A model generated the notes under the pieces. The model searched no databases. It worked only from the letters and a program-made list of their open reading frames with translations, and had not been told where the DNA came from. Below are positions 671-29,258 of a stretch of 64,000 nt of DNA, piece by piece. The translations under genes and the position numbers were made by a program. Source of the stretch: Octopus sinensis (Eukaryota); NCBI RefSeq assembly GCF_006345805.1, contig NC_043024.1, forward strand, positions 2,666,001 through 2,730,000. The letters run 5' to 3'. Within the stretch, counting starts at the first letter, position 1. Each line of letters begins with the position of its first letter.

Positions 671-1784
671 AGTTAGCTTTTTATATAACCTGTATGAAAT
701 CTTGAGTTACATCCAGGAGATAAAACAGTCTTCAGAAAGACAAATACCTCTGGTATTATCAATACCAACAGATAACGGGCCACTCGAGTTATCTCATACA
801 CTGGCCACATTAACGTTTTAAGTTCATTTCAAATTTTGGCAGAAGATCAGCAATTTCAGGTTAGGGGGACTGGTACTTATTGACTTCAAAAGTGTGAAAA
901 AAAAGCTGAGTCAACCGTGGTGGAATTTGAACTCGGAATGTAAAGATAATAAAATGCTAATAATTCTGCCAGCTCTCTTCCCTACAGTAGCTTTTAATAT
1001 TGATTTCAAATTTTAGCACAAGGCCGGCAATTTTGGGGGAGGTGGGTGGGTCGATTACATTGATCCCCAGTGTTTAACTGGTACTTCCTTTCTCATTCTC
1101 GAAAGGATGAAAAGGGAAGTTGGCCCCGGCAGCATTTGAATAATAATAATGCTTTCAAATTTTGGCACAAGGCTAGCAATTTTAGAGTGGGTAAGTTGAT
1201 TCCCTCAACCCCAGTACTCAACTGGTACTTATTTTATTGATCCCAAAAGCAAAGTAGACCGTAGCTGAATTTGAACCCAGAACATAGATGAAGTACCACT
1301 AAGCATTTTGCCCCGTGTGCTAACGGTTCTGCCAGCTCTCCACCCTAATAATCCTTTCTAAGCACAAGGACTGAAATTTCTGGGCATTCTATCAGATCGA
1401 CCCCAGTGTGTAACTGGTACTTAATTTATTGACCCCGAAAGGATGAAAGGCAAAGTCGACCTCTGCAGAATTTGAACCCAGAACATACCGGCAGACGAAA
1501 TGCCGCCAAGCATCTTGCCTGGTTTGCTCACAGTTCTACCAGCTTGCCACCCTAATGATAATAATAATCCTTTCTACTATAGGCACAAGGCCTGAAATGG
1601 CGGGTGGGTGGGGGACTAGTCAATTACATCAACCCCAGTATGTAACTGGTACTTAATTTATCGACTACGAAAGGATGAAAGGCAAAGTCGACCTCAGTGG
1701 AATTTGAACTCAGAACATACAGACAGACGAAATACTGCTAAGCATTTTGCCTGGTGTGCTAACGATTCTGCTAGCTCACTGCCC

Positions 1785-1815
<31 letters not shown>

Positions 1816-1978
1816 TTCAAATTTTGGCACAAATCCAGCAAGCTCATGGAAGGGCTGAGACCCCACTGTTTAACTGGTATTTTATTTTCTCACTACCAAA
1901 AGGAAGAAAAACAAAAGTTGACCCCCAGCAACATTTGAATATTGATGATGATGATGGTGGTGGTATTTGTGATATTTA

Positions 1979-2400
1979 AGGCGCCGAGCTGGCAGAGATG
2001 TTAGCACGCCGGGCGAAATGCTTAGCGGTATTTCGTCTGCCGCTACGTTCTGAGTTCAAATTCCACCAAGGTCGACTTTGCCTTTCATCCTTCCGGGGTC
2101 GATTAAATAAGTACCAGTTACGCACTGGAGTCGATATAATCGACTTAATCCGCTTGTTTGTCCTTGTTTGTCCTCTATGTGTTTAGCCCCTTGTGGGTAG
2201 TAAAGAAATGGGTATTTCGTCTACTGCTACGTTCTGAGTTCAAATTCCGCCGAGGTCGACTTTGCCTTTCATCCTTTCGGGGTCGATAAATTAAGTACCA
2301 GTTACGCACTGGAGTCGATATAATCGACTTAATCCGTTTGTCTGTTCTTGTTTGTCCTCTATGTGTTTAGCACCTTGTAGGTAGTGAAGAAAAAGGTATT
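1979..2400 (+). mobile_element. SINE family C with GCCTTTCATCCTTTCGGGGTCGAT..AAGTACC core (MetaSINE-like), often multimerised
   Basis: Copies ~8450-9445(-), 9990-10760(+), 26530-27140(+), 41585-42000(-), 48205-48810(-), 53915-54290(-), 56968-57375(+). Confidence 0.8.
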
Positions 2401-5968: not shown

Positions 5969-6672
5969 GTATGTATATTATTAGTGGTGATGAATTTATT
6001 AGTAGTGTAAACATTTATACACACATATGTATACATGTATGTATGCATGAATATACATGTGTGTATCATCAGTGTCGTCATTGTTTAACGTCCACCCTCT
6101 CTGCTGGCATGGGTTGGATGGTTTGACTGAGGACTGGTAAGCCAGGAGGCTGCACCAGGATCCAATCTGATCTGGCAAGGTTTCTACAGCTGGATGCCCT
6201 TCCTAACGCCAACCACTCAAGATTGTGTGTGTGTATGTATATGTATATATATATATATATATACTCTTTTTACTCTTTTACTTGTTTCAGTCATTTGACT
6301 GCGGCCATGCTGGAGCACCGCCTCTAGTATAGCAAATCGACCCCAGGACTTCTTCTTTGTAAGTCCAGTACTTATTCTATCAGTCTCTTTTTGCTGAATC
6401 GCTAAGTGACGGGGACGTAAACATACCAGCATTGGTTGTCAAGCAATGCTAGGGGGACAAACACAGACACACAAACACACACCCACACACATATATATAT
6501 ACATATATACGACCGGCTTCTTTCAGTTTCCGTCTACCAAATCCACTCACAAGGCATTGGTCGGCCCGGGGCTATAGCAGAAGACACTTGCCCAAGATGC
6601 CACGCAGTGGGACTGAACTCAGAACCATATGGCTGGTTAGCAAGCTACTTACCACACAGCCACTCCTGTGCC

Positions 6673-6704
<32 letters not shown>

Positions 6705-6880
6705 TGTGCATCGTTTTTTCTATATATATGAATGTGCATGTACATAAGTGTATTTACATGTGTCTACATGTTTGTGCATGAAAAGTATGTCAACATGAAT
6801 ACTAATCAAGGCTTTTATGTATATGAATGTATATACACATGTACACAAATATAAATGTACATATATGTGAAGATATATCG

Positions 6881-6922
<42 letters not shown>

Positions 6923-7083
6923 GCCGCAAGAGTGGCTGTGTGGTAAGTAGCTTGCTAACCAACCACATAGTTCTGGATTCAGTCCCACTGCGTGGCATCT
7001 TGGGCAAGTGTCTTCTGCTATAGCCCCGGGCCGACCATTGCCTTGTGAGTGGATTTGGTAGACGGAAACTGAAAGAAGCCTGT

Positions 7084-7120
<37 letters not shown>

Positions 7121-7526
7121 CTGTGTGTCTGTGTTTGTCCCCCTAGCATTGCTTGACCACCGATGCTGGTGTGTTTACGTCCCCGTCACCTAGTGGTTCG
7201 GCAAAAAGAGACTGATAGAATAAGTACTGGGCTTACAAAAAAGAATAAGTCCCGGGGTCGATTTGCTCGACTAAAGGCGGTGCTCCAGCATGGCCACAGT
7301 CAAATGACTGAAACAAGTAAAAGAGTATACAAATGCATGAAGAGTAAATAAATAGAGATTGAAGTAGTGTGTTATTGGACGCTCAGGAAAAGAAAGAAAG
7401 AAAGAGGACTTCATCAGAAATATAGAAAAGTCCAAAGAAAGGAAGATGGACAAGGAAGATCACCAACGATACACACGCGGTTATATATATATTTTATATT
7501 TATATATATATATGTATGTATATGTG

Positions 7527-8166: not shown

Positions 8167-11100
8167 GTAAGTACACACCACCTCTTTTAATATCCTTTCT
8201 AATTTTTGGCTGAGAGCCAACAATTTTGAGGGGAGGGTTTAGTCAATTACTTGGCCCCCAGGACACGACTGGTACTTATTTTATCGATCCTGAGCGGTTT
8301 CAGTCATTGAGACTTTTTCAACTGTAAGTATGGAAAACAATTAAATTTTGGAAAAATTAAATGAAATGTTTTTTAAAAGAATATTTGCATAGTATTCAAA
8401 TTTTTGCCACATGGGTAGCTTGAGGGAGGTTGGGATGAATCAATTATATTGACCCCAGTGTCCAACTGGTACTTATTTTATTGACCCCGAAAGGATGAAA
8501 GGCAAAGTCGACCTCGGCGGAATTTGAACTCACAATGTAACGCAGACGAAATACCGCTAAGCATTTCATTCGGCATGCTAATGATTCTGCCAGCTCACCA
8601 CCTTAAAAATTAGAAGGGGTTCTGAATGATGTTCTAATGATTCGGCTATTCTAACACCCAATTAGGTTGATTATATCGACCCCAGTGCACAACTGGTACT
8701 TATTTTATTGACCCCGAAAGGATGAAAGGCAAAGTCGACCTCGGCGGAATTTGAACTCACAATGTAACGCAGACGAAATACCGCTAAGCATTTCATTCGG
8801 CATGCTAATGATTCTGCCAGCTCACCACCTTAAAAATTAGAAGGGGTTCTGAATGATGTTCTAATGATTCGGCTATTCTAACACCCAATTAGGTTGATTA
8901 TATCGACCCCAGTGCACAACTGGTACTTATTTTATTGACCCCAAAACTTGTACATTTTTTATCAACCCCTAAAGAGGCAAAGTTCGCCTTGATGAAATTT
9001 CAACGCAGAATGTAAGGACAGGTGACATACCTATTTCTTTATTACCCACAAGGGAGCACTAAACATAGAGGGGACAAACAAGGACATATATAAGTATTAA
9101 GTCGATTACATTGACCCCAGTGTGTAACTGGTACTTAATTTATCGACCCCAAAAGGATGAAAGGCAAAGTCGACCTCGGCGGAATTTGAACTCAGAACGT
9201 AAAGACAGACAAAATACCTATTTCTTTACTACAAGGGGCTAAACATAGAGGGGACAAACAAGGACAGACAAACGGATTAAGTCGATTGCATCAACCCCAG
9301 TGCGTAACTGGTACTTAATTTTATCGACCCCGAAAGGATGAAAGGCAAAGTCGACCTTGGCGGAATTTGAACTCAGAATGTAACGGCAGACGAAATACGG
9401 CTATGCATTTCGCCCAGCATGCAAACGTTTCTGCCAGCTCGCCGCTGGTGACATACCACTAACCATTTCACCTGGCATGCCAAAAATCCTGCCTGCTCAC
9501 CAGCCACGTGAGTGTGCATATATTACACACACACACACACACACACATATGTGCATATGGAAAATTAGTTCAGGCTCTTAATAGAGGCCTTGCATATCTT
9601 TTGATATGGTCCTTGTGTTTCATATCTAAAAACATGTTCAGACTGATAGCATAAAAGCCTTGTATCTCTCTTAATAGATCCTCCTTGTAATTAATAAATA
9701 AACTCACCTTACAAAAGAGAAAAAAAAACAAAACAAAAACAAAAGGTAAAGAAAATAGAAAAAAACATTTTCTAAGGTGACACTGCAAAATTTCAAACAG
9801 TTTGTTTACATTGCAGTGGGGGTTGGAGTGGGTGTTAAGAAATTAGTAACATGTAAAAACATAATTATAGTAAATTATTGGTTTTCTTACCAAGTTTGAT
9901 AAATTACTATAATTGTTATTAAGGGATTGTTATGAAGCTGGGGCATGTTAGGGAGAGAGTAGCTGAATGAATAGGGATATTAAAAGGGATAGCAAGGGCA
10001 GAATGCTGACAGGATCGTTAGCATGTGAGAGAAAATGCTTAGTGATATTTCGTCTGTCTTTACCATCTGAGTTCAAATACCGCCGAGGTCGTCTTTGCCT
10101 TTCATCCTTCCGGGGTCGATAAATTAAGTACCAGTTACGCACTGGGGTCGATATAATCAAATTAATCCGTTTGTCTGTCCTTGTTTGTCCTCTCCGTATT
10201 TAGCCCCTTGTGGGAGGTAAAGAAATAGGTATTTCGTCTGTCTCTACGTTCTGAGTTCAAATTCCGCTGAGGTCGACTTTGCCTATCATCCTTTCGGGGT
10301 CGATAAATTAAGTACCAGTTATGCACTGGGGTCAATATAATCGACTTAATTCGTCTGTCTGTCCTTGTTTGTCCCCTCTATGTTGTAGCCCCTTGTGGGT
10401 AGTAAAGAAATAGGTATTTCGTCTGTCTTTACCATCTGAGTTCAAATACCGCCAAGGTTGACTTTGCCTTTCATCCTTTTGGGGTCGATAAATTAAGTAC
10501 CAGTTACGTACTGGGGTCGATGTACTCAACTTAATCCGTTTGTCTGTACTTGTTTGTCCCCTCTGTGTGTAGCCCCTTGTGGGTAGTAAAGAAATAGGTA
10601 TTTCGTCTGTCTCTACATTCTAAATTAAAATCCCACCAAGGTGGACTTAGCCATTTATCCATTCAGAGTCTATAAAATATAAACCAGTGGGGGCCTTGGG
10701 GGTTGATGTCATTGACTAACCCCCACCCACAAAATTTTAGGCCTTGTGTCTGTAGGAAAAAAAGGAATATTAAAAGGGGTTTTAAGGCAGCAAGATGGCA
10801 GAGTCCTTAGTGCTCCGGAAAATATGTTGGAAGTATTTCTCCTGGCTTTTTACATTCTGAGTTCAAATTCTGCCAAATTCATACTTTGCAGATCATTCTT
10901 TTAGAATTGATGAAATAAATGCCAGTCGTTCTCTGGGGTCGATATAACCAACCAACTCCCACCCACAAGATCTCAGGCCTTGTTTCTATAGAAGAAAGGC
11001 TTATTAAAGTGGTAAAAAGCACCATTGAAGAGTGTTCATTACCAGCGTCGCCTTACTGGCACTTGTGTCGGTGGCACGTGAAAAATCATTCGAGCGAGGT

Positions 11101-12575
11101 CATTACCAATGCTGCTGGACTGGCTCCTGTGCAGGTGGCACGTAAAAAACACCATTTGAGCGTGGCCGTTGCCAGTACCGCATGACTGGCCCTCGTGCCG
11201 GTGGCATGTAAAAGCACCCACTACACTCTCGGAGTGGTTGGCATTAGGAAGGGCATCCAGCTGTAGAAACTCTGCCAAATCAGAAACTAGGAACCATGTC
11301 ATTGCTGAATCAACTTCCTAACAACTTTATTCTTAATGTTTAATTATTTTTCTTAATCAGTAATTGACAAAATGTAATGAACTATTAATTAATTTTAAGG
11401 TCTAATTTTGCTAAATTGTATTTTTTTTGTTAGACTGAAAGAACTAATCGCCCAGGTCAGTTGGACCCCACAGGTTCATATCAACTCCTTGATCATTTTG
11501 CCGAATGTGGTGGCAACTTCATAGACACAGCAGATGTCTACACTGACCGTCAGTCGGAGACAATTGTTGGTAATTGGCTCAGCAGGTAAGAATCATCATC
11601 ATCATCATCATCATCATCATTTAATATTTTGTTCCTTCTCGAGCCATGCCTGGCTCATAAGGGCCGGTTTCCCAGTTTCCTTGGCACATAGGTTCCCCAC
11701 CTGGACGGGACACTGGTCAGTCGCAGGTGAGCTGCAAGATGCAGGAGGAAAGAGTGAGAGAAAGTTGTGATGAAAGAGTCAGCAGAAGTTCGCTATTACC
11801 TTCTGCTGGAGCCATGTGGAGCTTAGGTATTTCGCTCATAAACACACACATCGACCGATCTGAGATTTGAACCCACAATCCCTGGACAGGACGCTGGTCA
11901 GTCGCAGGTGAGCTGCAAGATGCAGGAGGAAAGAGTGAGAGAAAGTTGTGGCAAAAGAGTCAGCAGAAGTTCGCCATTACCTTCTGCCGGAGCCGCGTGG
12001 AGCTCAGGTGTTTCTCTCATAAACACACACATCGCCCGGTCTGAGATTCGAACCCGCGATCCCTCGACCGCGAGTCCACTGCTCTAACCACTAGGCCACG
12101 TGCCTTTACTATCATTTAACATCCGTTGTCCATACTGTCATGAGTTGGACGGTCTGATCAGAGCTGGCAAGCTGAGGGGCTGCACCAGACCCCAGTCTGA
12201 TTTTGCATGGTTTTTATGGCTGGATGCCCCCTTCCTAACCCTAATATGATATTTAACCCTTTAGCATTCAGATTAATTTGTCAAAGGCAAGACTTATTTA
12301 CTCTTTTTACTCTTTTACTCGTTTCAGTCATTTGACTGTGGCCATGCTGGAGCACCGCCTTTAGTCAAGCAAATCAACCCCAGGTCTTATTCTTTGTAAG
12401 CCCAGTACTTATTCTATCAGCCTCTTTTGCCAAACCGCTAAGTTACGGGGACGTAAACACACCAGCATCAGTTGTCAAGCGATGTTGGGGGGACAAACAC
12501 AAACACATAAACACACACACACATACATGTGTATATATATATATATTAGAATACCTGTATATCATCTCCAAACCT

Positions 12576-12647
<72 letters not shown>

Positions 12648-12858
12648 AACAAGTAAAAAGTAGAAAATGCTAAAATAATTTATAGTGAACATTTCAGTAC
12701 CGGTTTCGGTCATTTTGAGACCTTTTCAACTGTAACGATTAAATAATTAAATTTAGAAAAATTAGAAGAAAAGTTTTCTTAAAAGAATATTTCTATAGTA
12801 GTGTTCAGATTTAAGTGGCATTCTGCCTTTCTCTGACTCCCTTGTTTGCACTTGTGTG

Positions 12859-12893
<35 letters not shown>

Positions 12894-13436
12894 TATATAC
12901 GACGGGCTTCTTTCAGTTTCCGTCTACCAAATCCACTCACAAGGCATTGGTCGGTCCGAGGCTATAGTAGAAGACACTTGCCCATGGTGCCATGCAGTGG
13001 GACTGAACCCGGAACCATGTGGTTGGTAAGCAAGCTACTTACCACACAGCCACTCTGGCACCTATTTATTCACATTTACTTGGGATTAACCAAACCAATA
13101 AAACATTTAATCTTGAAGCTACAAGATATTAACGAAGTGATTGCTTTATTTTTAGAATGACATTGTAGGGTAGATGTGAGAAGCCTGATCTGTCTGGTCT
13201 CAACATGAAACATGCAAAACATCTAGGACAGAAATGGCTGGTTTAAATTTTAAAGGGTTAAAGTAAGTTCTACAGAATACATTTAGGGTCTTGAGGGAGC
13301 CTTGTTGCTTCTGTCTTTGAAGACATTCAGAAGCAACAAGGCTCCCACTTGGGCAAATGTCTTCTACTATAGCCTCGGGCCGACCAATGCCTTGTGAGTG
13401 GATTTGGTAGACGGAAACTCAAAGAAGCCCGTCGTA

Positions 13437-13504
<68 letters not shown>

Positions 13505-14846
13505 TGTATGTGTGCGTTTATGCGTTTGTGTTTGTCCCCCCCAACATCACTTGACAACCGATGCTGGTGTGTTTATGCCTCTGTAACTTAGCGGTTCGGC
13601 AAAAGTGACCGATAGAATAAGTACGAGGCTTACAAAAAATAAGTCCTGGGGCCACTTTGCTGGGGTTTGGATGTAACGTAGGGGTTGCATCTGTTGACTT
13701 GACACCCTGTTTTTTAATTAACACAAATTAGGTTATATTAATTAGCACTTTTTAATAATACACACCAGTGTGTTATGTAATTAATGACCTGTGGCCTCTA
13801 CCTGGAATGTAATAGGCGCAGGAGTGGCTGTGTGGTAAGTAGCTTGTTTACCAACCACATGGTTCCGGGTTCAGTCCCACTTTGTGGCATCTTGGGTGAG
13901 TGTCTTCTACTATAGCACCGGGCTGACTAAAGCCTTGTGAGTGGATTTGGTAGACGGAAACTGAAAGAAGCCTGTCGTATATATGTATATATATGTATGT
14001 GTGTGTATGTGTTTGTGTGTATTTTGTGTGTATGTGTTTGTCCCCCCAACATCGCTTGACAACCGATGCTGGTGTGTTTACGTCCCCGTAATTTAGCGGT
14101 TCGGCAAAAATGAGACCGATAGAATAAGTACTAGGCTTACAAAGAATAAGTCCTGGGTTCGATTTGATCGACTAAAGGCGGTGCTCCAGCATGGCCTCAG
14201 TCAAATGACTGAAACAAGTAAAAGAGTAAAAGAGTCCACTTATGCATACCTTTCCTTCTTGAGACACAAAACTCTACCTGTGAAGACCTGTTGAGGCAAG
14301 TGAGAATCAAAATCGAAATCGATCAACATCAATGGAAATTGTAGCTGTGATACCAGTGCTGGTGGCACATAAAAGAACCATCCGAACGTGGCTGTTGCCA
14401 GCACCGCCCTGACTGGCCACCGTGCCGGTGGCACGTAAAAAAGCACCAACCGTTCGTGGCCGTTGCCAGCCTTGCCTAGCCTTCGTACCGGTGGCACGTA
14501 AAAAGCACCATCCAATCGTGGCCATTTGCCAACCTCGCCTGGCCTCCGTGCCGGTGGCATGTAAAAAGCACCATCCGATCGTGGCCGTTTGCCAGCCTTG
14601 CCCAGCCTCCGTGCCGGTGGCACGTAAATAGCACCATCTGATCGTGGCCGTTTGCCAGCCTCGCCTGGCACCTGTGTCGGTGGCACGTAAAAAGCCCCCA
14701 CTACACTCATGGTGTGGTTGGCATTAGGAAGGGCACCCAGCTGTAGAAACATTGCCAGATCAGACTGGGCCTGGTGCAGCCTTCTGGCTTCCCAGACCCC
14801 AGTTGAACCGTCCAACCCATGCTAGCATGGAAAGCGGACGCTAAAC

Positions 14847-14878
<32 letters not shown>

Positions 14879-15369
14879 GAACTCAAAACTGTTAATGAAT
14901 ATAACTTGTAATTATTCATTTAATGAGGTTAAGTCTCGTAATTAAGAAAGCTATGCGAAATGTCTGACCTTAATATAATTTGTGTGTGTGCATATATACG
15001 TATGTGAGTGCGTGTGTGTGTGTTTCTGTGTGCATATGTACGTGTGTAATTATGCGTGGTCATGTCTGTGCATGCATTTGTGTGTGTACCTGTATGCGCC
15101 TCTATATTGTGTGTATATATGTATTCATATATGTGTGTGTGTGCATCTACATGTGCATATATATATGTCAGGATGCCATGATAGATCGTTAGCTCCTACA
15201 CGCATTTTTTTCTCTCCTTGTTTTCTTCTGTGTATCTTTCTGTCGAAGAGCGTAGGCTCGAAACGTAAAAGACTTTTCCTATTTCTATACCTGAGCGCCA
15301 TACTAATACAATTGTTTGTTTGTACTCCACCTGCCTTCGTCTTTTGTTTATTTTTGTAAACCTTCCCGT

Positions 15370-15435
<66 letters not shown>

Positions 15436-17268
15436 TTCTGTCGAAGAGCGTAGGCTCAAAACGTAAAGGACTTTCTCTACTTCTATTCCTGAGCGCCATA
15501 CTAATACATTTGTTTGTTTGTACTCCACCTGCCTTTGTCTTTTGTTTATTTTCGCAAACTTTCCCGTTATATATGTGTATATGTATTTATATGTATTTAT
15601 GTCTTTAATTTTCCTTAGTAAAGAGAGGAGCAGGTATGTTATTGCCACTAAGGTCCGGTTCAACAACAACCCCAAAGATCCGACCGACGTCAACGCTGTT
15701 GGACTCAGTCGTAAACACATTGTGGCTGGCTTGGAGAAGAGTCTTGAGTGTCTGCAGACCAATTATGTGGACCTTTATCAGGTAAGTCCCCACTTGCTAT
15801 AACACACACACACACATTCAAATTTTGTAGGGAGGAATTAAGTTAAGTTAAGTTAAATTTTTTGGCTCAAAAAGCAAGAAGCAAGGCCATGTAGGGGGAC
15901 ATGGAGTTATGTACAGGGAGGGTGTTCATGCAAAGAGTTCAGGCCATTTCTGGTCAAGCGAGACTTTGAACCGAGTGGGCGTCGGCATCTTCACTATCTC
16001 GTCCAGCAGCTTATTCCACGGATCCGCAACCCAGACGGAGAAAGCCCCTCTCCTTCGATTGAGATGAAATTGTCACAGATAGAGCTTTTCGGAGTGACCC
16101 CGCAGTGACCCAGTTAGAATAGCATAGAAAGGATAAAGCATCTGTAGTAGTTATTTAGTTCAGTTAGATCTGATCTTAGCTGGCCAGTGATAAAACACAT
16201 TCCAAGCAAGACCACCCTGTCTTGTTTTCAGGAATAGTCTACAAAACGGGCTGGAAAGTTCCTGGCTGTGGTTAAAAGAAAATACAGGAAGATCAATTAA
16301 TTATGATTTTACTTAGCATATTTCCTATTCCGTCTCCAAAGACTGCTGTTCCGTCTCCGAAGACTCCTGTTCTGTCTCCAAAGACCCATGTTCTGTCTCC
16401 AAAGACCCATGTTCCATCTCCAAAGACTCATATTACCTCTCCAAAGATTCCTATTCCGTCTCCAAAGACTCCTATTTTATCTCCAAAGACTCATATTCCG
16501 TCTCCAAAGACTCCTACTTTGTCCCCAAAGCCTCGCATTCCATCTTCAGAGATGAGATCAACACCTAAAAAGCCATTCCAGTTCTTACCACATCTCTATT
16601 TATTTTTTTTCCCCCTTCGTAACCAGGCTCATTGTTGGGACAGTGGTACACCAATCAAGGAAACCCTTTTGACCTTCCACGATTTACAAAGAGCTGGCAA
16701 GATCCATCATATTGGTGTAAGCAATTTCTGTGGCTGGCAGCTACAGAAAACGGTTGATCTGGCCAACCACATCGGTATGTCATCAATTCTTACTCTTCAG
16801 GTAAGTTGAAGCAATATTTTAGAGGTTGTTTTTTTCCTAATTTTGTTTTACTTTTGTTCTTTTATTTCACTATACCGGAGTAAACATAAATGTGAAACAA
16901 GGTGGAAAAAAGAGTACTCAAATACCAGTGGTAGAGTAATATGCTTTATTTAAAAGCAGCAGAAATTCAACAAAACCTGTTACTCAGAGTAACAGGTTTT
17001 GTTGAATTTCTACTGCTTTTAAATAAAGTATATATATAAGATAAATATTTCAATTACCTGAAGATTGACTGTAACCATAACTCGAATTATTACGAATTGG
17101 ACAGCCATGAAACGATCGTAGTGTTTTACTCATTATCTTTTATTAAACTTTTAATACTTTTGATATATACTTAAAATAATATAAATTAATTAATTTTATG
17201 TATTGGCTTAAGTTTTTCATTGTTTGATTTGCCTAATAGTGGTTTTATCTCTAATTTAATATAATATA

Positions 17269-17300
<32 letters not shown>

Positions 17301-20270
17301 TATATATAGGGTTATCCCATAAATAATGCAGCTTTTGTGTACTTCTTTTATTTCTCAAAATTAAGATAAACAAAGTTCTTTCTTAATCTAAAATATACTC
17401 TCCTTCAGTTTCTGGTAGACTTATATCATCATCGCCTTCGTTTCACACCCATCTTCCATTCATGCATGCAGCCAAGTAGAAAAACTACCCTAGGCTACTG
17501 TGTCTGTATGTATAATGCCTATTTTTGTTTCCATAGCAACAGTACAGTCTCATGGAGAGAAATGCTGAGTTTGAAGAATTCCAAGTGTGCCAAAATGATG
17601 GAATATCCATTTTACCGTGGAGTCCCCTGAAAGGGTAAGCAACATCCGACCTTTTTTTCTAGAGAAATTTGTAATTCTTTGAAATATTTGTCATTGTTCA
17701 CGTTACTATGACAACATTAGGGGAAGACGTTATGTGGTTGTTTGACATGCTAGAAATAGCAGTCATCTTTGTCAGACATACGTTTAAAGAACAAAAGGAA
17801 GGTTAAGGTCATATCTAGAGTGCTTTTGATCATCTTGCTCAGTCAGACTAGACCTAAAAACTGACCTGAGACTGACCAACAATAGCAAGACTGCCATAGA
17901 TCTTTTTGACCATAACTGACCTAGGGCTACTTACCATCACCACAATTGATCACAGCTCTGTTTGACCATAACTGACCTAGGCCCACATACCTTCATTATC
18001 ACCACCCTTGACCATAGCTGACCAAGGGGCATTCTCCACCTCTGACACCACAATTAATCACAGCTCTTTTTGACCATGACTGACCTAGGGCTACTTACCA
18101 TCACCACAATTGATCACAGCTCTTTTTCACCATAACTGACCTAGGCCCGCATACCTTAATTATCACCACCCTTGACCATAGCTGACCAAGGGGCACTCTC
18201 TGCCTCTGATATCACAATTAATCACAGCTCTTTTTGACCATGACTGACCTAGGGCTACTTACCATCACCACAATTGATCACAGCTCTTTTTGACCATGAC
18301 TGACCTAGGGCTACTTACCATCACCACAATTGATCACAGCTCTTTTTCACCATAACTGACCTAGGCCCGCATACCTTAATTATCACCACCCTTGACCATA
18401 GCTGACCAAGGGGCACTCTCTGCCTCTGATATCACAATTGATCACAGCTCTGTTTGACCATAACTGACCTAGGCCCGCATACCTTCATTATCACCCTTGA
18501 CCATAGCTGACCAAGGGGCAGCTCTGTTTGACCATAACTGACCTAGGCCCACATACCTTCATTATCACCACCCTTGACCATAGCTGACCAAGGGGCATTC
18601 TCCACCTCTGACACCACAATTAATCACAGCTCTTTTTGACCATGACTGACCTAGGGCTACTTACCATCACCACAATTGATCACAGCTCTTTTTCACCATA
18701 ACTGACCTAGGCCCGCATACCTTAATTATCACCACCCTTGACCATAGCTGACCAAGGGGCACTCTCTGCCTCTGATATCACAATTCATCACAGCTCTGTT
18801 TGACCATAACTGACCTAGGCCCGCATACCTTCATTATCACCCTTGACCATAGCTGACCAAGGGGCACTCTCTGCCTCTGATATCACAATTCATCACAGCT
18901 CTGTTTGACCATAACTGACCTAGGCCCGCATACCTTCATTATCACCCTTGACCATAGCTGACCAAGGGGCACTCTCTGCCTCTGATATCACAATTCATCA
19001 CAGCTCTGTTTGACCATAACTGACCTAGGCCCGCATACCTTCATTATCACCCTTGACCATAGCTGACCAAGGGGCACTCTCTGCCTCTGATATCACAATT
19101 CATCACAGCTCTGTTTGACCATAACTGACCTAGGCCCGCATACCTTCATTATCACCCTTGACCATAGCTGACCAAGGGGCACTCTCTGCCTCTGATATCA
19201 CAATTCATCACAGCTCTGTTTGACCATAACTGACCTAGGCCCGCATACCTTCATTATCACCCTTGACCATAGCTGACCAAGGGGCACTCTCTGCCTCTGA
19301 TATCACAATTCATCACAGCTCTGTTTGACCATAACTGACCTAGGCCCGCATACCTTAATTATCACCACCCTTGACCATAGCTGACCAAGGGGCACTCTCT
19401 GCCTCTGATATCACAATTCATCACAGCTCTGTTTGACCATAACTGACCTAGGCCCGCATACCTTCATTATCACCACCCTTGACCATAGCTGACCAAGGGG
19501 CACTCTCTGCCTCTGATATCACAATTCATCACAGCTCTGTTTGACCATAACTGACCTAGGCCCGCATACCTTCATTATCACCCTTGACCATAGCTGACCA
19601 AGGGGCACTCTCTGCCTCTGATATCACAATTCATCACAGCTCTGTTTGACCATAACTGACCTAGGCCCGCATACCTTCATTATCACCCTTGACCATAGCT
19701 GACCAAGGGGCACTCTCTGCCTCTGATATCACAATTCATCACAGCTCTGTTTGACCATAACTGACCTAGGCCCGCATACCTTCATTATCACCCTTGACCA
19801 TAGCTGACCAAGGGGCACTCTCTGCCTCTGATATCACAATTCATCACAGCTCTGTTTGACCATAACTGACCTAGGCCCGCATACCTTCATTATCACCCTT
19901 GACCATAGCTGACCAAGGGGCACTCTCTGCCTCTGATATCACAATTCATCACAGCTCTGTTTGACCATAACTGACCTAGGCCCGCATACCTTAATTATCA
20001 CCACCCTTGACCATAGCTGACCAAGGGGCACTCTCTGCCTCTGATATCACAATTCATCACAGCTCTGTTTGACCATAACTGACCTAGGCCCGCATACCTT
20101 CATTATCACCCTTGACCATAGCTGACCAAGGGGCAGCTCTGTTTGACCATGACTGACTTTATAGTTGGGAAGCAAGGCTCTTAATCACACAACCATGTAC
20201 ATGTGTGTGTGTCTTACCTGGCTAACCAAAGCCTTGGGAATGAATTCGTTAGTGAGATACTGAAAGAAGC

Positions 20271-20305
<35 letters not shown>

Positions 20306-20536
20306 TGTCTTGACAACATGTGATGGTTGTAAATGAGTTTCACTGTCATACAAGCAGTGTTGTTTGTTTTCAATCTTCCATGAAAAACTTGTCTGACCAG
20401 GGGGGGGGGGGGATATTACCTTGCTGGGGGAAACAGGAGGGAGGTTGGCAACAGGAAGAGCATCCAGCTGTAGAAAACCTGCCTTACAAATTCAGTCTGT
20501 CTTATGCAAGCACGAGAAAGTGGAAGTTAATGATGT

Positions 20537-20600
<64 letters not shown>

Positions 20601-22957
20601 GGTGGTGATGATGATGATGATGATGATGATGGTGATGATAATGATGATGAGGATGATGATGATTATGGTGATGATGCTGATGCTGATGATGATGATGATG
20701 ATGATGGTGGTGGTTGTGGTGGTGGTGGTGGTGGTGTGTGGGTGGGTGGGTGTGGATTTGCGTACGTTTGCATCATAAGCGGAATGTGTAACCTCTCGAA
20801 AGAGCTGTTCTCCACTCCTGCTCCAGAGCGTTGGCTGCGGGGTCACTCCGAAAAGCTCTATCTGCGACAATTTCATCTCAATCGAAGGAGAGGAGCTTTC
20901 TCCGTCCGGGTTGCGGATCCGTGGAACAAGCTGCCGGACGAGATAGTGAAGATGCCGACGCCCACTCGGTTCAAAGTCTCTTTTGACCAGAAATGGCCTG
21001 AACGCTTTGCATGATCACCCACGCTGTACATAACTCCATGTCCCCCTACATGGCCTTGCTTTTTGCTTTTGGAGCCAAAAAATTAACTTAGCTTAACATA
21101 AATAATCTTGCAAACCAAAGCCAAAAATAAAGATTTAGGTGAAAATAATGATGGTAATGGTAACAAACCTCAATGCCTTTGATAGCCATATTACTGAGTC
21201 TCTTGGTGCGTGTTTCCAGTGCCATTTGGAATGGTTGCAGGCATCTGTTCCGCAGCTGGTGCACAGGAATGTCAGATGCATTTGGGCTGGAGATGAATTC
21301 TGCAAAAAACATTGAATTGAGAAAAACCGGATTGATAGAAAAAGGAACAAACGATTTGTGTGAAATACATTTGAGATATGGTCTGGAAAGGGAGATATTT
21401 GAAACACTGTGTGTTTCATCTCAGTCGAAGGAGAGGGGCTTTCTCCGTCCGGGTTGCGGATCCGTGAAATAAGCTGCCGGACGAGATAGTGAAGATGCCG
21501 ACGACCACTCGGTTCAAAGTCTCTTTTGACTAGAAATGGCCTGAACGCTTTGCATGAACACCCTCCCTGTACATAACTCCATGTCCCCCTACACGGCCTT
21601 GCTTTTTGCTCTTTGAGCCAAAAAACTAACTTAACTTAACTTAACTTAACTTGCATGTGTGTGTGTGTGTGTGCATGTGTTTATTTGTGTGTGCATGTGC
21701 TTTCATTGAAGAAGCCCTTTTTTTTTTTTTCTGTCAGTGGTTTCCTCTCTGGTAAATTCAAAAGAACTGAAGCCCCTTCAGCAGAAACAAGGATCGGGTA
21801 TACAGCTCTGGATGAGAAAAATCGGACTCTTGAAATCCAGCCTGGATGGTCCGCATTACAATCCAGAGACGATGTTTGGCTCCTTCTTGACGCCATGACA
21901 AAAATTGCACAAAATCACAGTAAGTTCAGGGGTTTTTATCTTTTCTAACAGTCTGCCTTTACCTCCACCATCATTTTTATTATTCTTTTACTCAGTAGAA
22001 AAAGGGCAGTGTGAGACCCCTTTTTCATGCCCTTCCAGGCCAGTGGGGTACGTACCTGAACCAAATATTTCCAAAACAATAGACACTGCCAAAGTCATCC
22101 AAGAACATTGATGTGATTTGAACCATTTTCAAACCAGTCCATCCATGACTGTCCCTTTTACTTGTTTCGGTCATTTGACTGTAGTCATGCTGGAGCAAAA
22201 GACCCCGGGACTTATTCTTTGAAAGCCTAGTACTTATTCTATCGGTCTCTTTTGCTGAACTGCTAAGTGACGGGGATGCAAACACACCACCACCGGTTGT
22301 CAAGCGATGTTGGGGGCACAAACACAGACACACAAACATATACACACACATACATACATATATACGACAGGATTCTTTCAGTTTCTGTTTACCAGATCCA
22401 CTCACAAGGCTTTGGTCGGCCCGAGGCTATAGTAGAAGACCCTTGCCCAAGGTGCTACGCAGTGGGACTGAACCTGGAACCATGTGGTTGGTAAGCAAGC
22501 TACTTACCACACAACCACTCTTGCGTCTATAAAATATTTTTGTAAAATATTTTTTAATTTAAGATTTAAATATAATTTAAAATCTTTGTGTATTTTTAAG
22601 TTGCTGGAATTTATCTGCCATGATGTTTCAGTTTCAATCCCCAACGTCAGATCAAAATATTTTCTTGACAAGTTACAACTCTTAAATTTTTCTACCTTCT
22701 TTTTGTTTTTTGCTAGATAAAAGTGTGGCACAAGTTGCCATTCGGTGGCTCCTTCAGAGAAAGATGGTGGCATCAGTTATCTTCGGTGCTAAAACTATGA
22801 ACCAACTTGATGACAATATTGGGGCTTCCAGTGGCTGGGAACTGACATGTGAAGAGGTAGGGCTTTCTTAAAACTCCTTTTTATTCTCTATCTTGTTTTG
22901 TTAATGTCTGTCTTTTGATGCTAGAATCAGCTGGACTCCTTCAAACATACACAAACT

Positions 22958-22994
<37 letters not shown>

Positions 22995-25900
22995 AATGTA
23001 TATACATATGAAACTCTGGAGTCTGGCAGCTGACTTGGCAGACACCCATAGAATTATTAACCATCTTACAAACAATAACTCTGAGCACCTTTTCAAACTC
23101 CACCCGTCTAACACCCGTGGACATGTTTACAAAGTCAGAAAACAGCACAGCTCCTTCCATGACTTTCGGAAACATTTTTTCACGCTAAGAGTTGCTGAAG
23201 CATGGAACAAACTGCCGGCATCAGTTGTTAGTTGTTGGAGCACTGCATCCTTCAAAACTTCCATGCTTCCTGAGATTCGCCAACACTACACCTGATTTTC
23301 TCCCCTCCATACACATGCAAGCATGTATCTGACTAATACATTGTTCGTTTCCCAGACATTTTTACATTACTGCATATGCTTTATACGCACTTTTGACAAA
23401 TTGTGGTGCACCTGAGCACTCTCTTTACTCTTTACTCTTTTACTTGTTTCAGTCATTTTGACTGTGGCCATGCTGGAGCACCGCCTTTAGTCGAGCCAAT
23501 CAACCCCAGGACTTATTCTTTGTAAACCCAGTACTTATTCTATCAGTCTCTTTTGCTGAACCGCTAAGTGATGGGGGACATAAACACACCAGCATCGGTT
23601 GTCAAGCAATGCTAGGGGGACAAACACAGACACACAAACACACAAACATATATATATATATGCAATGGGCTTCTTTCAGTTTCCGTCTACCAAATCCACT
23701 CACAAGGAATTGGTCGGCCCGGGGCCATAGCAGAAGACACTTGCCCAAGATGCCACGCAGTGGGACTGAACCCGGAACCATGTGGTTGGTTAGCAAACTA
23801 CTTACCACACAGCCACTCCTGCACCTGTATACAATAATTTCATTATTATTATTATTATTAAAAGAATTCACACAATTGGATCTGGATCTGGTTATGGTAA
23901 TGGAGAAAGTTATGGAACCATTGATCTGTGACAGAATAGATTTAGATGAGATGCAGTTTGACTTCATGTTCAGAAGATGTATAATGGATGCAATTTTCCT
24001 TCTGGTGCAACTGCAGGAGAAATATTTGGCTACGGGCAAGCTGTTATTCTTGGGATTCTTTGACTTGGAGAAGACACCTGAGAAGGGAGCACCTTCAGTA
24101 ATTTGGTAATCCATAAGAAAACTAGACGTGAACGACTGTCTTGTAATGGCTGTACCAAGCTATGTACAAAGATGCATTGATGTAAAGTGGCATCCGGCCG
24201 TAGAAAGCTTGCCACACGCTTAGCGCTGCGTATATGTGCATACATTTTTGTAGGCGCGGGCATGGCTGTGTGGTTAGGGAGCTTGCTTCCTAGCTACATG
24301 GTTTCGGGTTCAGTCCCACTGCGTGGCACTTTGGGTAGGTGTCCTCCACTATAGCCCCCGAGCCGACCGGAGCTTTGTGATTGAATTCGGTAGGTGGAAG
24401 TTACTGCCATGTGTGTATATGTGCGTGTAGGTGCTTGTGCCTCTCCGAAAGAGAGAGAGGGAAATTGATGATTTTCGTGAAGTATTTAGTGTCAGGGTTG
24501 GAGTCCATCAAGGTTCAGTCCTCGGTCCCTTTCTATTCATCACATTCGTCAGGGGCAGATTTAAGACAGGCTGTCCGTGGAAACCCATATATGTTGATGA
24601 TCTGGTTCTCAGAGCAGAATCTCTGAGAGAATTAGAGAATAAATTCCAGACGTGGAAGCTAAACCTAGAATTAAGAAATAAACTTAGCAAAGTATCTTCA
24701 AGGAAATGGCTTTGTCCAATACTCAGCTAGAATACTAGCATAAATGGAATGTATGTATGCAGGAGTGGCTGTGTGGTAAGTAGCTTGTTTACCAACCACA
24801 TGGTGCCGGGTTCAGTCCCACTGCGTGGCACCTTGGGCAACTGTCTTCTGCTATAGCCTCGGGCCGACCATTGCCTTGTGAGTGGATTTGGTAGACTGAA
24901 ACTGAAAGAAGCCCGTCGTATATATGTATATATATATGCGAGTGTGTGTTTGTGTGTCTGTGTTTGTCCCCCCAACATCGCTTGACAACCGATGCTGGTA
25001 TGTTTACGTCACTGTAACTTAGCGGTTCGGCAAAAGAGACCGATAGGATAAGTACTGGGCTTACAAAAGAATAAGTCCCGGGGTCGAGTTGCTCGATTAA
25101 AGGCGGTGCTCCAGCATGGCTGCAGTCAAATGACTGAAACAAGTAAAAGAGTAAAAAAAAAAGAAAAGAGTATACTATCTATAGCTAATTCAAGGAGAAT
25201 GCTGCTGTATATAGCATTGTCTCAACACACCTAAACTGGTAGAAGCCATGAATAAATTCAACTAGAATTCACTGTGTAGATGTCATTGGCATTGGGAAAG
25301 ATTCTGTTGTCGTTTAGCTTATCAAATCCTCGTTAAGTAGACATGTGATCAAAGACGTTTCAGAAATGACCTCCCTGTCTATATCTTTTTAAGATGTAGT
25401 GTATGAAGGGCCTACGTGTCTTTTCTTTTTAAATAATGTAGGATGCGAGATAAGGGAGATTTGGCTGCTATTTCTAGCAGGGCAGGCAACTTAGCTATAA
25501 CAGCCTTGTGGTATTACTTATTACACAAAACATTGACCTTGTTTTGTCTCTTATCTTGTGTGTGTGTGTGTGTGTGTGAATATTGTGTGAGTTAGCTTTT
25601 TATATAACCTGTATGTAATCTTGAGTTACATCCAGGAGATAAAACAGTCTTCAGAAAGACAAATACCTCTGGTATTATCAATACCAACAGATAACAGGCC
25701 ACTTGAGTTATCTCCTACACTGGCTACAGTGAGATGGCGGAGTTGTTAGCACACCAGACATTGGTAGGATTTTAGCTGTCTTTACCTTCCGAGTTCAAAT
25801 TCCACCGAGGTCACCTTTACCTTTTATTTTATCAGGGTTGATAAAATAAGTACCAGTTGAACACTGGGGTCAATGTACCATATTTTAACATGTATAAGGA

Positions 25901-28043
25901 ATCCTTGTGTATAAGGAACTTTCTAATTTTGGGGGCTTAAAATTCAAAAAATAGGTTTTATAAGGGTTTATAATAATATCCATGGTTAAGAAACTTCCAT
26001 ATTTTTTAAACCTAATTTTTGACAAAAAAGGGTTCCTTTTTACACGTTAATGTCAATGTACCATATTTTAACATGTATAAGGAGCCTGCTAATTTTGGGG
26101 GCTTAAAATTTGGAAAATAGGTTTTATAAGGGTTTATAATAATATCCATGGTTAAGAAACTTCCATATTTTTTAAACTTAATTTTCGACAAAAAAGGGTT
26201 CCTTTTACACATTAAAATATGGTAATTTATTTAACCCCTCCACCAAAACTGCTAGCTTTGCACCAAAATTAGCTCCAGTGTGGAGATGGTAGAACTCTTA
26301 GCATGCCAGGCAAAGTGGTTAGCTGCATTTCATCCAACTGTCTTTTCTGAGTTCAAGTCCTACCAAGGTCAACTTTGCCTTTCCTCCTCTCAGGGTTCAT
26401 AAAATAAGTGCCAGTTATACACTGGGATTGATGCAGTCAACTTACACCCCTCCCCCGAAGTTGCTGGCCTTGTGCCAAAATTTGAAACCAACATTTTGAT
26501 AGAACTGTTATTATTTATGGTGAGTCAAAGTGCTGAGCTGGCAGAATCATTAGTGTACTGGACAAAATGTTTTGCAGTATTTCGTCTGTCGCTATGTTCT
26601 GAGTTCAAATTCCGCCGAGGTCGACTTTGCCTTTCATCCTTTCGGGGTCGATTAAATAAGTACCAGTTACGCACTGGGGTTGATATAATCGACTTAATCC
26701 GTTTGTCTGTCCTTGTTTGTCCTCTCTGTGTTTAGCCCCTTGTGGGTAGTAAAGAAATAGGAATTTCGCCTGTCAGTATGTTCTGAGTTCAAATTCCGCC
26801 AAGGTCGACTTAACCTTTCATCCTTTTGGGGTCGATTAAATAAGTACCAGTCAACTTACCCCTTCTCCACAAATTTCAGGCCTTGTGCCTATTGTAGAAA
26901 GGATTATTATTGTTGTTGTTCTTGTTAAGGCAGTGAGCTGGCAGAATCGTTAGCACACTGGACGAAATGCTTAGAGGTATTTCACCCATTGGTATGTTCT
27001 GAGTTCAAATTCCGCCAAGGTCAACTTTACCTTTCATCCTTTCGGGGTCAATAAATTATGTACCAGTTACGCACTGGGGTCAATGTAATTGATTCATCCC
27101 CTCCCCAAAATAGCTGCCCTTGTGGCAAAATTTGAAACCATTATTTATGGTGAAACAGATACACAAATAATAGTAAAGACTTCAAATTTTGGCACAAGGC
27201 CCACTAGTTCAGGGGACACTGGTCCATTGAAGGATTTCTCATTTTTGCCAGCTGAGTGGACTGGAGCAACATGAAATGAAGTGTTTTGCTCAAGAACACA
27301 ATTCACTGCCCGGTCTAGGAGTCAAAACCACAATCTTACGATCATGAGTCCAACGCCCGAAATACTAAGTCACACACCTTCACATTCAGTCAGGTTGACA
27401 CCTTAATAATACTAATAGTAGTAATAATGAAAGGAATAATAATAATATTCATAATAATATTCATAGGTGCAGGAGTGGCTGTGTGGTAAGTAGCTTGCTA
27501 ACCAACCACATGGTTCCGGGTTCAGTCCCACTGCGTGGCACCTTGGGCAAGTGTCTTCTGCTATAGCCCCGGCCGACCAATGCCTTGTGAGTGGATTTGG
27601 TAGACGGAAACCGAAAGAAGCCCGTCGTATATATGTGTATATTTATATGTGTGTGTGTGTATATGTTTGTGTGTCTCTGTTTGTCCCCCTAGCATTGCTT
27701 GACAACCGATGCTGATGTGTTTATGTCCCCGTCACTTAGCGGTTCGGCAAAAGAGACCGATAGAATAAGTACTGGGTTTATAAAGAATAAGTCCCGGGGT
27801 CGATTTGCTCGACTAAAGGCGGTGCTCCAGCATGGCCGCAGTCAAATGACTGAAATAAGTTTAAAAAAAAAGAAAAAAAAAAAGAATAATGTCTGAATGA
27901 TGATGATGATGATGATGATGATTATATAAAGTCTTATTTCTTATTGCTTCCCACAGATGGAGACACTGAATGATTTATCGGCCCCTGTGAAAAAATATCC
28001 GCATACCGTCAATGCTAAGTTTAATGCTATGCGCCTGAAGTAA
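8077..28043 (+). CDS. Aldo-keto reductase, YajO/Tas/aryl-alcohol-dehydrogenase-like, 8 coding exons, 361 aa
   Basis: Exons 8077-8166, 11434-11585, 15619-15781, 16627-16800, 17537-17634, 21738-21919, 22717-22856, 27957-28043; all GT-AG and phase-compatible, 1086 nt. Motifs: [30 protein letters not shown] (Asp, Tyr), VIATK (Lys), DLYQAH (His), [33 protein letters not shown]. Confidence 0.95.
11434..11585 (+). CDS. AKR coding exon 2
   Basis: tag acceptor, ...[24 protein letters not shown], gtaag donor. Confidence 0.93.
12695..12732 (-). ncRNA. Minimal hammerhead motif with U3-A8 variant core
   Basis: cag TTGAAAA ggtc-tcaaaat-gacc GAAAC-cg-GTA ctg; relatives at 8295-8324(-) and 29071-29109(+). 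Confidence 0.68.
13815..14235 (+). mobile_element. tRNA-derived SINE, family B (GGCGCAGGAGTGGCTGTGTGGTAAG... internal (TA)/(TG) tract ... GAAACAAGTAAAAGAG tail)
   Basis: Many copies: ~6265-6672(-), 6922-7326(+), 22155-22525(-), 23420-23825(-), 24758-25155(+), 27465-27860(+), 39130-39547(-), 51060-51400(+), 52752-53507(-). Confidence 0.85.
14240..14877 (+). mobile_element. SINE family D with RTE-like 3' end (GGACGTTAAACGATGATG) and internal GTGCCGGTGGCACGTAAAAAGCACC repeats
   Basis: Copies ~11040-11290(+), 30430-31220(-), 34020-34770(-), 45010-45390(-), 46700-47080(-), 54690-55030(-). Confidence 0.75.
15619..15781 (+). CDS. AKR coding exon 3
   Basis: [14 protein letters not shown]...[27 protein letters not shown], gtaag donor. 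Confidence 0.93.
16322..16548. repeat. 21-bp tandem repeat (CCTATTCCGTCTCCAAAGACT-like)
   Basis: About 10 degenerate units upstream of AKR exon 4. Confidence 0.85.
16627..16800 (+). CDS. AKR coding exon 4
   Basis: [41 protein letters not shown]..., gtaag donor. Confidence 0.93.
17055..17123 (+). ncRNA. Type I hammerhead ribozyme motif
   Basis: tac CTGAAGA ttgactgt...acagccat GAAAC-gatc-GTA gtg. Confidence 0.68.
17537..17634 (+). CDS. AKR coding exon 5
   Basis: [33 protein letters not shown], gtaag donor. Confidence 0.93.
17900..20160. repeat. Intronic minisatellite, 105/108-bp unit built from ~50-bp TTGACCAT-subunits
   Basis: ttgaccataactgacctaggcccgcataccttcattatcacccttgaccatagctgaccaaggggcactc... 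repeated; a third subunit type is mixed in at the 5' end. Confidence 0.95.
20530..20752. repeat. (GAT)n/(GGT)n microsatellite
   Basis: Direct reading. Confidence 0.95.
20780..21100 (+). mobile_element. CR1-like LINE 3' fragment with (TTAAC)n tail
   Basis: LRGHSEKLY...[17 protein letters not shown]; further copies at 21412-21652(+) and 15838-16110(-). Confidence 0.75.
21738..21919 (+). CDS. AKR coding exon 6
   Basis: [20 protein letters not shown]...[12 protein letters not shown], gtaag donor. Confidence 0.92.
22717..22856 (+). CDS. AKR coding exon 7
   Basis: [46 protein letters not shown], gtaggg donor. Confidence 0.93.
23020..23420 (+). mobile_element. CR1/L2-like LINE 3' fragment
   Basis: [12 protein letters not shown]...[17 protein letters not shown]; its 3'UTR recurs inverted at ~56400-56585. 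Confidence 0.78.
23865..24720 (+). mobile_element. Degenerate RTE-clade LINE reverse transcriptase fragment interrupted by a SINE
   Basis: LDEMQFDFM...[14 protein letters not shown]...FFDLEK; [16 protein letters not shown]...YVDDLVL; SINE head at ~24252-24410. Confidence 0.85.
25877..26224. mobile_element. MITE with TACCATATTTTAA terminal inverted repeats and internal duplication
   Basis: taccatattttaacatgtataagga ... tccttttacacattaaaatatggta. Confidence 0.65.
27957..28043 (+). CDS. AKR coding exon 8 (terminal)
   Basis: cacag acceptor, [28 protein letters not shown]. Confidence 0.9.
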   Translation: METLNDLSAPVKKYPHTVNAKFNAMRLK

Positions 28044-28595
28044 CACAGCTATCACTATACATTTCACATGTGTTATATACACCACATTGTGGGTGTATAC
28101 ACACTATCCCATGGATGTATACATATACAAATGCAAACACATACACAGTATACCACAGAAGTACATATGCATATCTATCTATCTATCTTTAGTTTGATTT
28201 GAAAACCCCACTAGAATGGGAGAAAGCGCTAATGATCTAAGTGATATGATATATATATCAAAAATGTAATATATAAATAAAGATCTGTAAATACAAACCA
28301 TCCGATCTTCTGAGTACCTTATTTCTTCTAATATATATATATATATATATATACAATTTAAAAATAGGATAAAATCTTCATAAGAATTTATCAAGTAGTC
28401 AGCGTGAAAACCTCATAAGAGAAAAATATCCACCAATTTTTTCATTTAAATATATTTATTTATATTATATAGAGGGCATTATTACACATAAATGCCACAT
28501 GCTAGGAGGGACTCTTAAAGTCAAAACTACTAAAATAAATAAACATATCGTACCGAATGCAACTCTCGGAGCAAGTCATTTAAAAACAGAGTTCA

Positions 28596-28661
28596 GCTGC
28601 AGATCACCTGTGATTTCATAATCAGTGCAGTGGTCTGCACTTTTTACTCATCAGTGCAAGC
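28596..28661 (-). ncRNA. Type I hammerhead ribozyme motif
   Basis: tgca CTGATGA gtaa..agtgcag-acca-ctgcact..ttat GAAA tcac-ag-gtga TC tgca; AUC site; sits between ~75-bp direct repeats (~28352-28425 and ~28852-28915). Confidence 0.8.
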
Positions 28662-29258
28662 ATAATTCAAGATTTATAATGAATAAACAAAATCAATATA
28701 CCAGATGAACAACCATCGTATCCAACGTAGTATATAGAACTGCTCACCCCTTATACATCTATGTAAATGGCAGGCTTTTTCGAATTGAATTTCAGTAACA
28801 ATGTGCTTATTCAGAATAAAAATTCAGTATTGAATATACTCTGGTTAAATTTACAATTTAAAAATAGGATAAAATCTTCATAAGAATTTATCAAGTAGTC
28901 AGCGGGAAAACCTCAACAGAGGTTCAGGCATCCACAAAGGAACAGAGAGAGAGAGACAGACTGTCTGAAAACTATGGAAATATTTACCTATTCAAGGACT
29001 ATGGAAATATCTACAAAACGTTTCACTTAATATTTTTCCCTCCAACTTAATTGTTTTCCCTATTTTACTCTTAGTTGAAAAAGTCTAAAATGACAGAAAC
29101 CGGCACTAAAATGTACTTCATGATAAAAATATTTTAGCATTTTCTATCTTGTCTTATTTTCTTTATACATCTCAACTCATGTGTTACTTTTCTACCTTCT
29201 ACACACACACATGTATATATTGTATGGTTATATATATATTTGTGTATGTACATGTATA

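What the first reader, a model, noticed from the sequence alone, without database searches (positions are those of the whole stretch)
8295..29109. Hammerhead variants with UUGAAAA core: natural U3-A8 covariation of the tertiary pair
Seen: three related copies (8295-8324 -, 12695-12732 -, 29071-29109 +) have TTGAAAA in place of CTGANGA, with covarying stems: stem II ggtc/gacc vs agtc/gact, stem I cag/ctg vs tag/cta. Established: C3 and G8 form a Watson-Crick tertiary pair and U3-A8 can substitute. Inference: a selected variant family that strict CUGANGA searches would miss. Only the 12695 copy is complete (GAAAC-CG-GUA).
Basis: partly seen in the sequence, partly recalled or inferred. Interest (0 to 1): 0.75.

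Follow-up and report, generated by a model that had tools for sequence, protein, structure and literature searches.

The report
Penelope retroelement hammerhead, U3-A8 core
The three motifs are truncated end pieces of a very abundant Penelope-type jumping gene whose hammerhead-shaped RNA, predicted to cut itself as a dimer, has a U-A instead of the usual C-G core pair; that variant is already published, though related repeats in this genome also use A-U, G-C and C-G at the same place.

Summary
Real, but largely known. The three motifs are truncated 3' ends (pseudo-LTRs) of three subfamilies of a Penelope-like retroelement (RT + GIY-YIG, Neptune/Nematis-type linker). The 12695 copy has 1,763 exact 34-base matches in the genome (reversed control 0). 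U3-A8 is the fixed family state: 3,045 of 3,136 A/B-type copies; the other 91 are mismatches, none a compensatory pair. So 3/8 does not covary within this family, only between families. Stem I and II compensations between subfamilies hold. U3-A8 hammerheads in Penelope elements were published in 2014 (Schistosoma). Canonical C3-G8 motifs remain commoner genome-wide. Additions: endonuclease-linked relatives carry A3-U8 and G3-C8 (one family: 97 of 100 paired, both states), a retrozyme-like family holds amplified U3.G8 and C3.A8 sublineages, and RNA-like contigs show the core likely A-to-I hyper-edited. Cleavage is untested; no excess of copies starts at the cut site. The scan noted U3-A8, A3-U8 and G3-C8 Penelope hammerheads before, on other DNA and on another piece of this genome.

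The parts
12643..12858 (-). 5'-truncated 3' end (pseudo-LTR) of Penelope-like subfamily A, between (TA)n tracts
   Evidence: (97% to the element end in L127)
12695..12732 (-). Complete minimal type I hammerhead motif: U3-A8 core 12729-12723, stem II 4 bp, palindromic stem III (ACCGGU), GUA triplet, predicted cut 12698/12697
8295..8403 (-). Fragment of subfamily B pseudo-LTR; hammerhead broken after GAAACCG, followed by the end of another repeat
   Evidence: 97-98% to L064, L068, L070
28944..29216 (+). Older 3' end of subfamily C with the optional 30-40 base tail; hammerhead 29072-29108 has U16.1 changed and a 10.1-11.1 mismatch
   Evidence: about 83-90% to relatives

Best explanation
The three motifs are truncated 3' ends of a young, high-copy Penelope-like retroelement family, and they carry that family's minimal type I hammerhead with a U3-A8 core pair, which likely cuts the element's RNA after GUA when two copies pair through the palindromic stem III, likely with help from the element's protein. 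Shown: element identity, copy number, fixed U3-A8, stem compensations between subfamilies, other Watson-Crick pairs at 3/8 in related families. Inferred: cleavage, dimer formation, protein help, and a role in processing tandem or read-through transcripts. The window copies are dead insertion products; two of three could not cut.
For: Upstream of near-identical copies lies an ORF with RT (PF00078, 33.2 bits, over cut-off) and C-terminal GIY-YIG (21.6 bits, just under cut-off; 23.9 in related L133). Tandem pseudo-LTR, inverted 5'-truncated partner copies, optional 3' tail and (TA)n targets are present, as described for these elements (10.1101/2021.04.23.441226, passages). U3-A8 in 3,045 of 3,136 A/B copies. 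Of 30 GIY-YIG loci, 12 had a downstream hammerhead passing my filter: 11 U3-A8 (8 of one family), 1 A3-U8. One endonuclease-linked family has 71 A3-U8, 26 G3-C8 and 3 mismatches in the first 100 of 123 matches; about 40 mismatches would be expected if unlinked. Dimer hammerhead topology -24.9 kcal/mol against 2 x -9.8 for monomers. An anole Penelope hammerhead cleaves only with its protein and is rescued by a 3/8 double change (PMC11167929).
Against: No cleavage data. Monomer folding is no better than shuffles (z -0.75; 52 of 200 as good), and the predicted fold pairs U3 with A17, which would compete with U3-A8 as C3-G17 is presumed to do (PMC3884650, passages). Subfamily C has no 10.1-11.1 pair. 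Copies starting at the cut site are not clearly in excess (5 loci against 2 and 1 at two neighbouring positions). Minimal Penelope hammerheads cut weakly in vitro (PMC4209133) and cleavage was not needed for insertion in vitro (PMC11167929). Paired counts come from few founder lineages, so they are few independent events.
Confidence: 0.8

Rival explanations
1. The hammerhead fold is kept as a binding or folding signal for the element's RT-endonuclease protein; cutting is slow, incidental or lost in this family.
For: Catalytic mutants did not affect insertion in vitro and no reads ended at the cut site in the anole element (PMC11167929); predicted U3-A17 pairing; no clear cut-site breakpoints; amplified U3.G8 and C3.A8 sublineages in a retrozyme-like family.
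Against: The 3-8 pair belongs to the active conformation (PMC3884650, passages) and stays Watson-Crick through three different states in related families; the NUH triplet is kept.
Confidence: 0.15
2. U3-A8 is a neutral founder state copied from a few master elements; no selection on the fold.
For: Inside subfamilies A and B variants at 3 and 8 are unlinked; copy number reflects amplification, not independent support.
Against: Families whose endonuclease regions are only about 42-60% identical to family A keep the core, a stem II of changing sequence and a palindromic stem III; the double swap A3-U8/G3-C8 with 3 mismatches in 100.
Confidence: 0.04
3. The motifs are decayed canonical C3-G8 hammerheads or chance matches in A+T-rich DNA.
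For: Canonical motifs are commoner genome-wide (43,910, control 4,150, against 32,143, control 12,721).
Against: 1,763 exact copies, control 0; no C3-G8 copy among 44 non-U3 variants of A/B.
Confidence: 0.01

Closest known systems
Minimal hammerheads (min-HHR) of metazoan Penelope-like elements, including the U3-A8 variant of Schistosoma mansoni Cercyon elements (Cervera and De la Pena 2014, PMC4209133; read parts 1-2 of 4: results, discussion)
   Same: Type I topology in the pseudo-LTR, short stem I, G10.1-C11.1 (subfamily A), palindromic stem III for dimer formation, U3-A8 core, mostly single truncated copies and opposite-strand pairs
   Different: 4-bp stem II without the 5' bulge; Neptune/Nematis-type host; A17; relatives with A3-U8 and G3-C8 are not mentioned in the parts read
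Natural U3-A8 hammerheads (Perreault et al. 2011, PMC3088659; passages)
   Same: U3-A8 covariation seen in nature and stated to be active in vitro
   Different: Not described there as a high-copy Penelope family in the passages seen
Poseidon element PAc of Anolis (PMC11167929; passages and second half of main text)
   Same: Hammerhead in pseudo-LTR, optional 30-40 base tail, 3/8 double change rescues cleavage
   Different: C3-G8 core, Penelope/Poseidon clade, hammerhead overlaps the start codon; here the ATG lies about 125 bases past the cut site
Small hammerhead variants of Penelope-like retrotransposons (Lunse et al., RNA Biol 14:1499; title seen in a reference list only, content recalled)
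   Same: Reduced stem III, dimer cleavage
   Different: Could not be read; it may already list further 3/8 pairs

Membership tests
Penelope-like element, C-terminal EN+ | ORF with RT followed by C-terminal GIY-YIG endonuclease | tested here: met
   RVT_1 over cut-off, GIY-YIG E 2.7e-4 just under cut-off in L127, over in L133
Penelope-like element, C-terminal EN+ | Pseudo-LTRs from partial tandem, inverted 5'-truncated partner, optional 30-40 base tail | tested here: met
Penelope-like element, C-terminal EN+ | Two cysteines of the CCHH motif inside the GIY-YIG core | tested here: met
   read from translations
Neptune or Nematis clade | CX2-5CxxC linker between RT and EN; (TA)n targets | tested here: met
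   C-x4-C-x2-C; definition; TA flanks
Neptune or Nematis clade | Placement in an RT tree with reference elements | not tested
   no reference elements fetched; the two clades are not told apart
Type I minimal hammerhead | Core N3-U4-G5-A6-N7-N8-A9, G12-A13-A14, Watson-Crick 3-8 pair, NUH triplet | tested here: met
   12695 copy; not met by the 8295 and 29071 copies
Type I minimal hammerhead | Stems I and II with compensatory changes; palindromic stem III | tested here: met
Type I minimal hammerhead | Match to an Rfam hammerhead model | tested here: inconclusive
   none among the 150 best of 234 rows shown; 84 weaker rows not seen
Type I minimal hammerhead | Self-cleavage at the predicted site | not testable with these tools
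   indirect breakpoint test inconclusive
Non-LTR retrozyme | Non-coding short tandem monomers each with a hammerhead | tested here: not met
   the motif ends a 4.3-kb coding element

The most novel reading that the evidence does not exclude
One animal genome records the whole evolutionary circuit of a ribozyme's catalytic-core pair: related Penelope elements use U3-A8, A3-U8 and G3-C8, a retrozyme-like family returned from U3-A8 to C3-G8, mismatch forms (U3.G8, C3.A8) were themselves amplified, and host ADAR editing of inverted pseudo-LTR transcripts rewrites the A-rich U3-A8 core and switches the ribozyme off.
Probability: 0.35. Interest if true: 0.55.

Novelty: new member of a known kind. 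Interest (0 to 1): 0.33.

Why it matters
The finding as given adds one more high-copy example of a published variant. It matters modestly for annotation: about a third of hammerhead-like pattern matches above background in this genome have U3-A8 (about 19,400 against 39,800 for C3-G8) and are missed by CUGANGA searches. The related families give natural sequences for asking how a tertiary pair in a catalytic core changes through mismatch states, and whether Penelope hammerheads need to cut at all, which is still open (PMC11167929).

Tried and rejected
Genome-wide dominance of U3-A8: suggested by the CCGG-tail counts (7,739 against 140) but rejected by the broader patterns. Linkage of 3 and 8 within subfamilies A/B: none. 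Fossil cut marks (lead from e1-8643110): 7 matches with a non-A before C1.1, one an insertion in an intact motif, six with foreign upstream DNA at 5 loci, one of them an ambiguous fold-back that also gives the +2 control; controls 2 loci at -3 and 1 at +2; about p 0.09 by a rough binomial; all are short end fragments, none a full-length copy. Thermodynamic support from folding: none (z -0.75, 0.74, -0.45, 0.36). Linking C3-G8 motifs to a Penelope ORF: none found beside the motif in 20 fetched stretches. Expression: no RNA holder listed on record; contigs cannot show ends or strand. The endonuclease tree (39 of 53 rows, 14 near-identical family A rows dropped) holds frameshifted rows, so its root and branch order among A copies are not used. 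One search had a pattern one letter too long and found nothing; repeated. Przybilski and Hammann 2007, Nelson and Uhlenbeck 2008 and Lunse et al. could not be read, so measured rates for U3-A8, A3-U8 and mismatch forms are not cited. Supplements of PMC4209133 were not opened and may show further core variants.

Full report
Observation. The three motifs are present as described. A descriptor asking for core, a 4-bp stem II and GAAA found only the 12729 and 8321 cores in the window. The 12695 copy is complete. The 8295 copy stops after GAAACCG. The 29071 copy has U16.1 changed and no 10.1-11.1 pair. Rfam showed no hammerhead among the 150 best of 234 rows.

What it is. The 12695 region has near-identical copies across the genome and 1,763 exact 34-base matches, reversed control 0. 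[quoted passage not shown] L121 holds a whole unit of about 4.3 kb between two same-strand hammerheads. Ten of the other 11 long loci have an inverted 5'-truncated partner. Copies end in (TA)n at either of two points about 40 bases apart, the known tail. The 8295 and 29071 motifs belong to older subfamilies B and C, whose ORF remnants are about 66-82% and 40-83% identical, piece by piece, to the family A protein. The host is probably an octopus; this is inferred from recall and earlier scan notes and was not tested.

Test of the 3/8 claim. In subfamilies A and B together, 3,045 copies have U3-A8, 44 have another base at 3 (27 C, 10 G, 7 A; 43 keep A8, one has G3.G8) and 47 have U3 with another base at 8 (37 G, 6 U, 4 C). 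No compensatory pair occurs in these strict patterns; a looser pattern showed 2 B-type C3-G8 copies among 100 of 140 listed, about what independent decay gives. So the family state is U3-A8 with post-insertion decay. With the tail GAAACCGGUH the genome has 7,739 U3-A8, 140 C3-G8, 263 C3.A8 and 146 U3.G8 matches (controls 45, 27, 43, 24). With a broader tail C3-G8 leads, 43,910 (control 4,150) to 32,143 (control 12,721) (some matches counted twice). U3-A8 is common but not the majority.

Covariation between families. Of 30 GIY-YIG loci, 11 had a downstream U3-A8 motif, 1 had A3-U8 and 18 had none passing my filter. A3-U8 has 1,562 matches (control 295) and G3-C8 132 (control 45); several lie downstream of ORF pieces 35-70% identical to the family A protein. 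With U8 fixed and U3 excluded, 97 of the first 100 of 582 matches of the main A3-U8 family have A3. One family defined by its stem II has 71 A3-U8, 26 G3-C8, 2 G3.U8 and 1 A3.C8 in the first 100 of 123 (counted by eye), and its A3-U8 and G3-C8 members share a branch (100/98) in the endonuclease tree. A separate family with 354-360 base tandem spacing, retrozyme-like by inference, has 76 U3-A8, 10 C3-G8, 11 U3.G8 and 3 C3.A8 in the first 100 of 756. In a tree of 55 copies with positions 3 and 8 masked, all C3 copies form one branch (97/92) nested among U3-A8 lineages, the six C3.A8 copies group (91/87), and U3.G8 needs at least two origins (midpoint root, bootstrap not fully settled). These are few independent events, but they show the pair being exchanged while staying mostly Watson-Crick.

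Mechanism. The monomer is predicted to form stems I and II only, no better than shuffles. Two copies can pair through ACCGGU into the dimeric hammerhead topology, -24.9 against 2 x -9.8 kcal/mol. The predicted folds also pair U3 with A17; by analogy with the presumed C3-G17 pair (PMC3884650, passages) this may damp activity. In the anole element the hammerhead cut only with protein present, a 3/8 double change partly rescued it, and cutting was not needed for insertion in vitro (PMC11167929). The most likely reading is weak, protein-assisted dimer cleavage of tandem or read-through transcripts of active elements. Genomic breakpoints gave no clear support.

Editing. Contigs of three runs from three studies, guessed to be RNA, show T-to-C at 32, 21 and 25 places of a 251-base pseudo-LTR stretch against 6 in a large DNA-like run, and loose ends behind G5 in which the core and loop adenines read as G (5, 3 and 3 contigs). 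The genome holds only 2 copies with G at position 7 under a pattern that allows G at every A, both single changes. This fits A-to-I hyper-editing of double-stranded RNA from the inverted copies, a known target class (PMC5625713, passages). Limits: run type is a guess, no matched DNA, 121 loose-end rows not shown, and the edited share is low. A search for hammerhead, ADAR, Penelope and editing together found 0 papers.

Comparison and novelty. U3-A8 in Penelope hammerheads is in print (PMC4209133), as is natural U3-A8 (PMC3088659). Searches for hammerhead with octopus (7 listed) and with A3-U8 or G3-C8 terms (8 listed; listings only, except two papers read in passages) showed no report of natural A3-U8 or G3-C8, but three key papers were not available. 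Of 10.64898/2026.07.22.740005 I read part 1 of 5; of PMC7229834, PMC2837043 and PMC6765202 passages. Earlier scan notes report the same kinds of variant on other DNA and on another piece of this genome. Verdict: a new member of a known kind, interest about 0.33.

Noticed in passing
window 43042-43134 (both strands), 58071 (-), 63031 (+): Four canonical C3-G8 minimal hammerhead-like motifs of another abundant repeat; two form a short head-to-head palindrome that Rfam mislabels as mir-3199 (below gathering score). No ORF link found.
   Followed up: partly
L091-L120, L135-L170: Retrozyme-like family with about 360-base tandem units and a long stem I; all four of U3-A8, C3-G8, U3.G8 and C3.A8 occur, with C3 nested inside U3-A8 lineages.
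   Followed up: partly
L231, L243-L262, L273-L302: Penelope families with A3-U8 and G3-C8 cores and a 2-bp stem II.
   Followed up: partly
L123:5640-5890, runs X12, X9, X11: Likely A-to-I hyper-editing on both strands of the pseudo-LTR, including the hammerhead core.
   Followed up: partly
one search list, e.g. G000:C1:22487526-22487553: A repeated family with C3.A8 and a poorly paired stem II makes up about a quarter of the C3.A8 matches listed; a few copies have G8.
   Followed up: no
L225 (G000:C15:67137376-67140639): Divergent Penelope copy whose U3-A8 hammerhead has G15.2-C16.2 in a palindromic stem III and a CUA triplet.
   Followed up: no
L127:2219-3016: Unannotated reading frame upstream of the RT-EN frame in family A; no Pfam match; may be a frameshifted N-terminus.
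   Followed up: no
window 1380-2400, 6350-7250, 48260-48810 and others: Several SINE-like repeat families with about 184-base tandem units and inverted pairs; 105-base and 17-base tandem arrays at 18600-20300 and from 51330.
   Followed up: no
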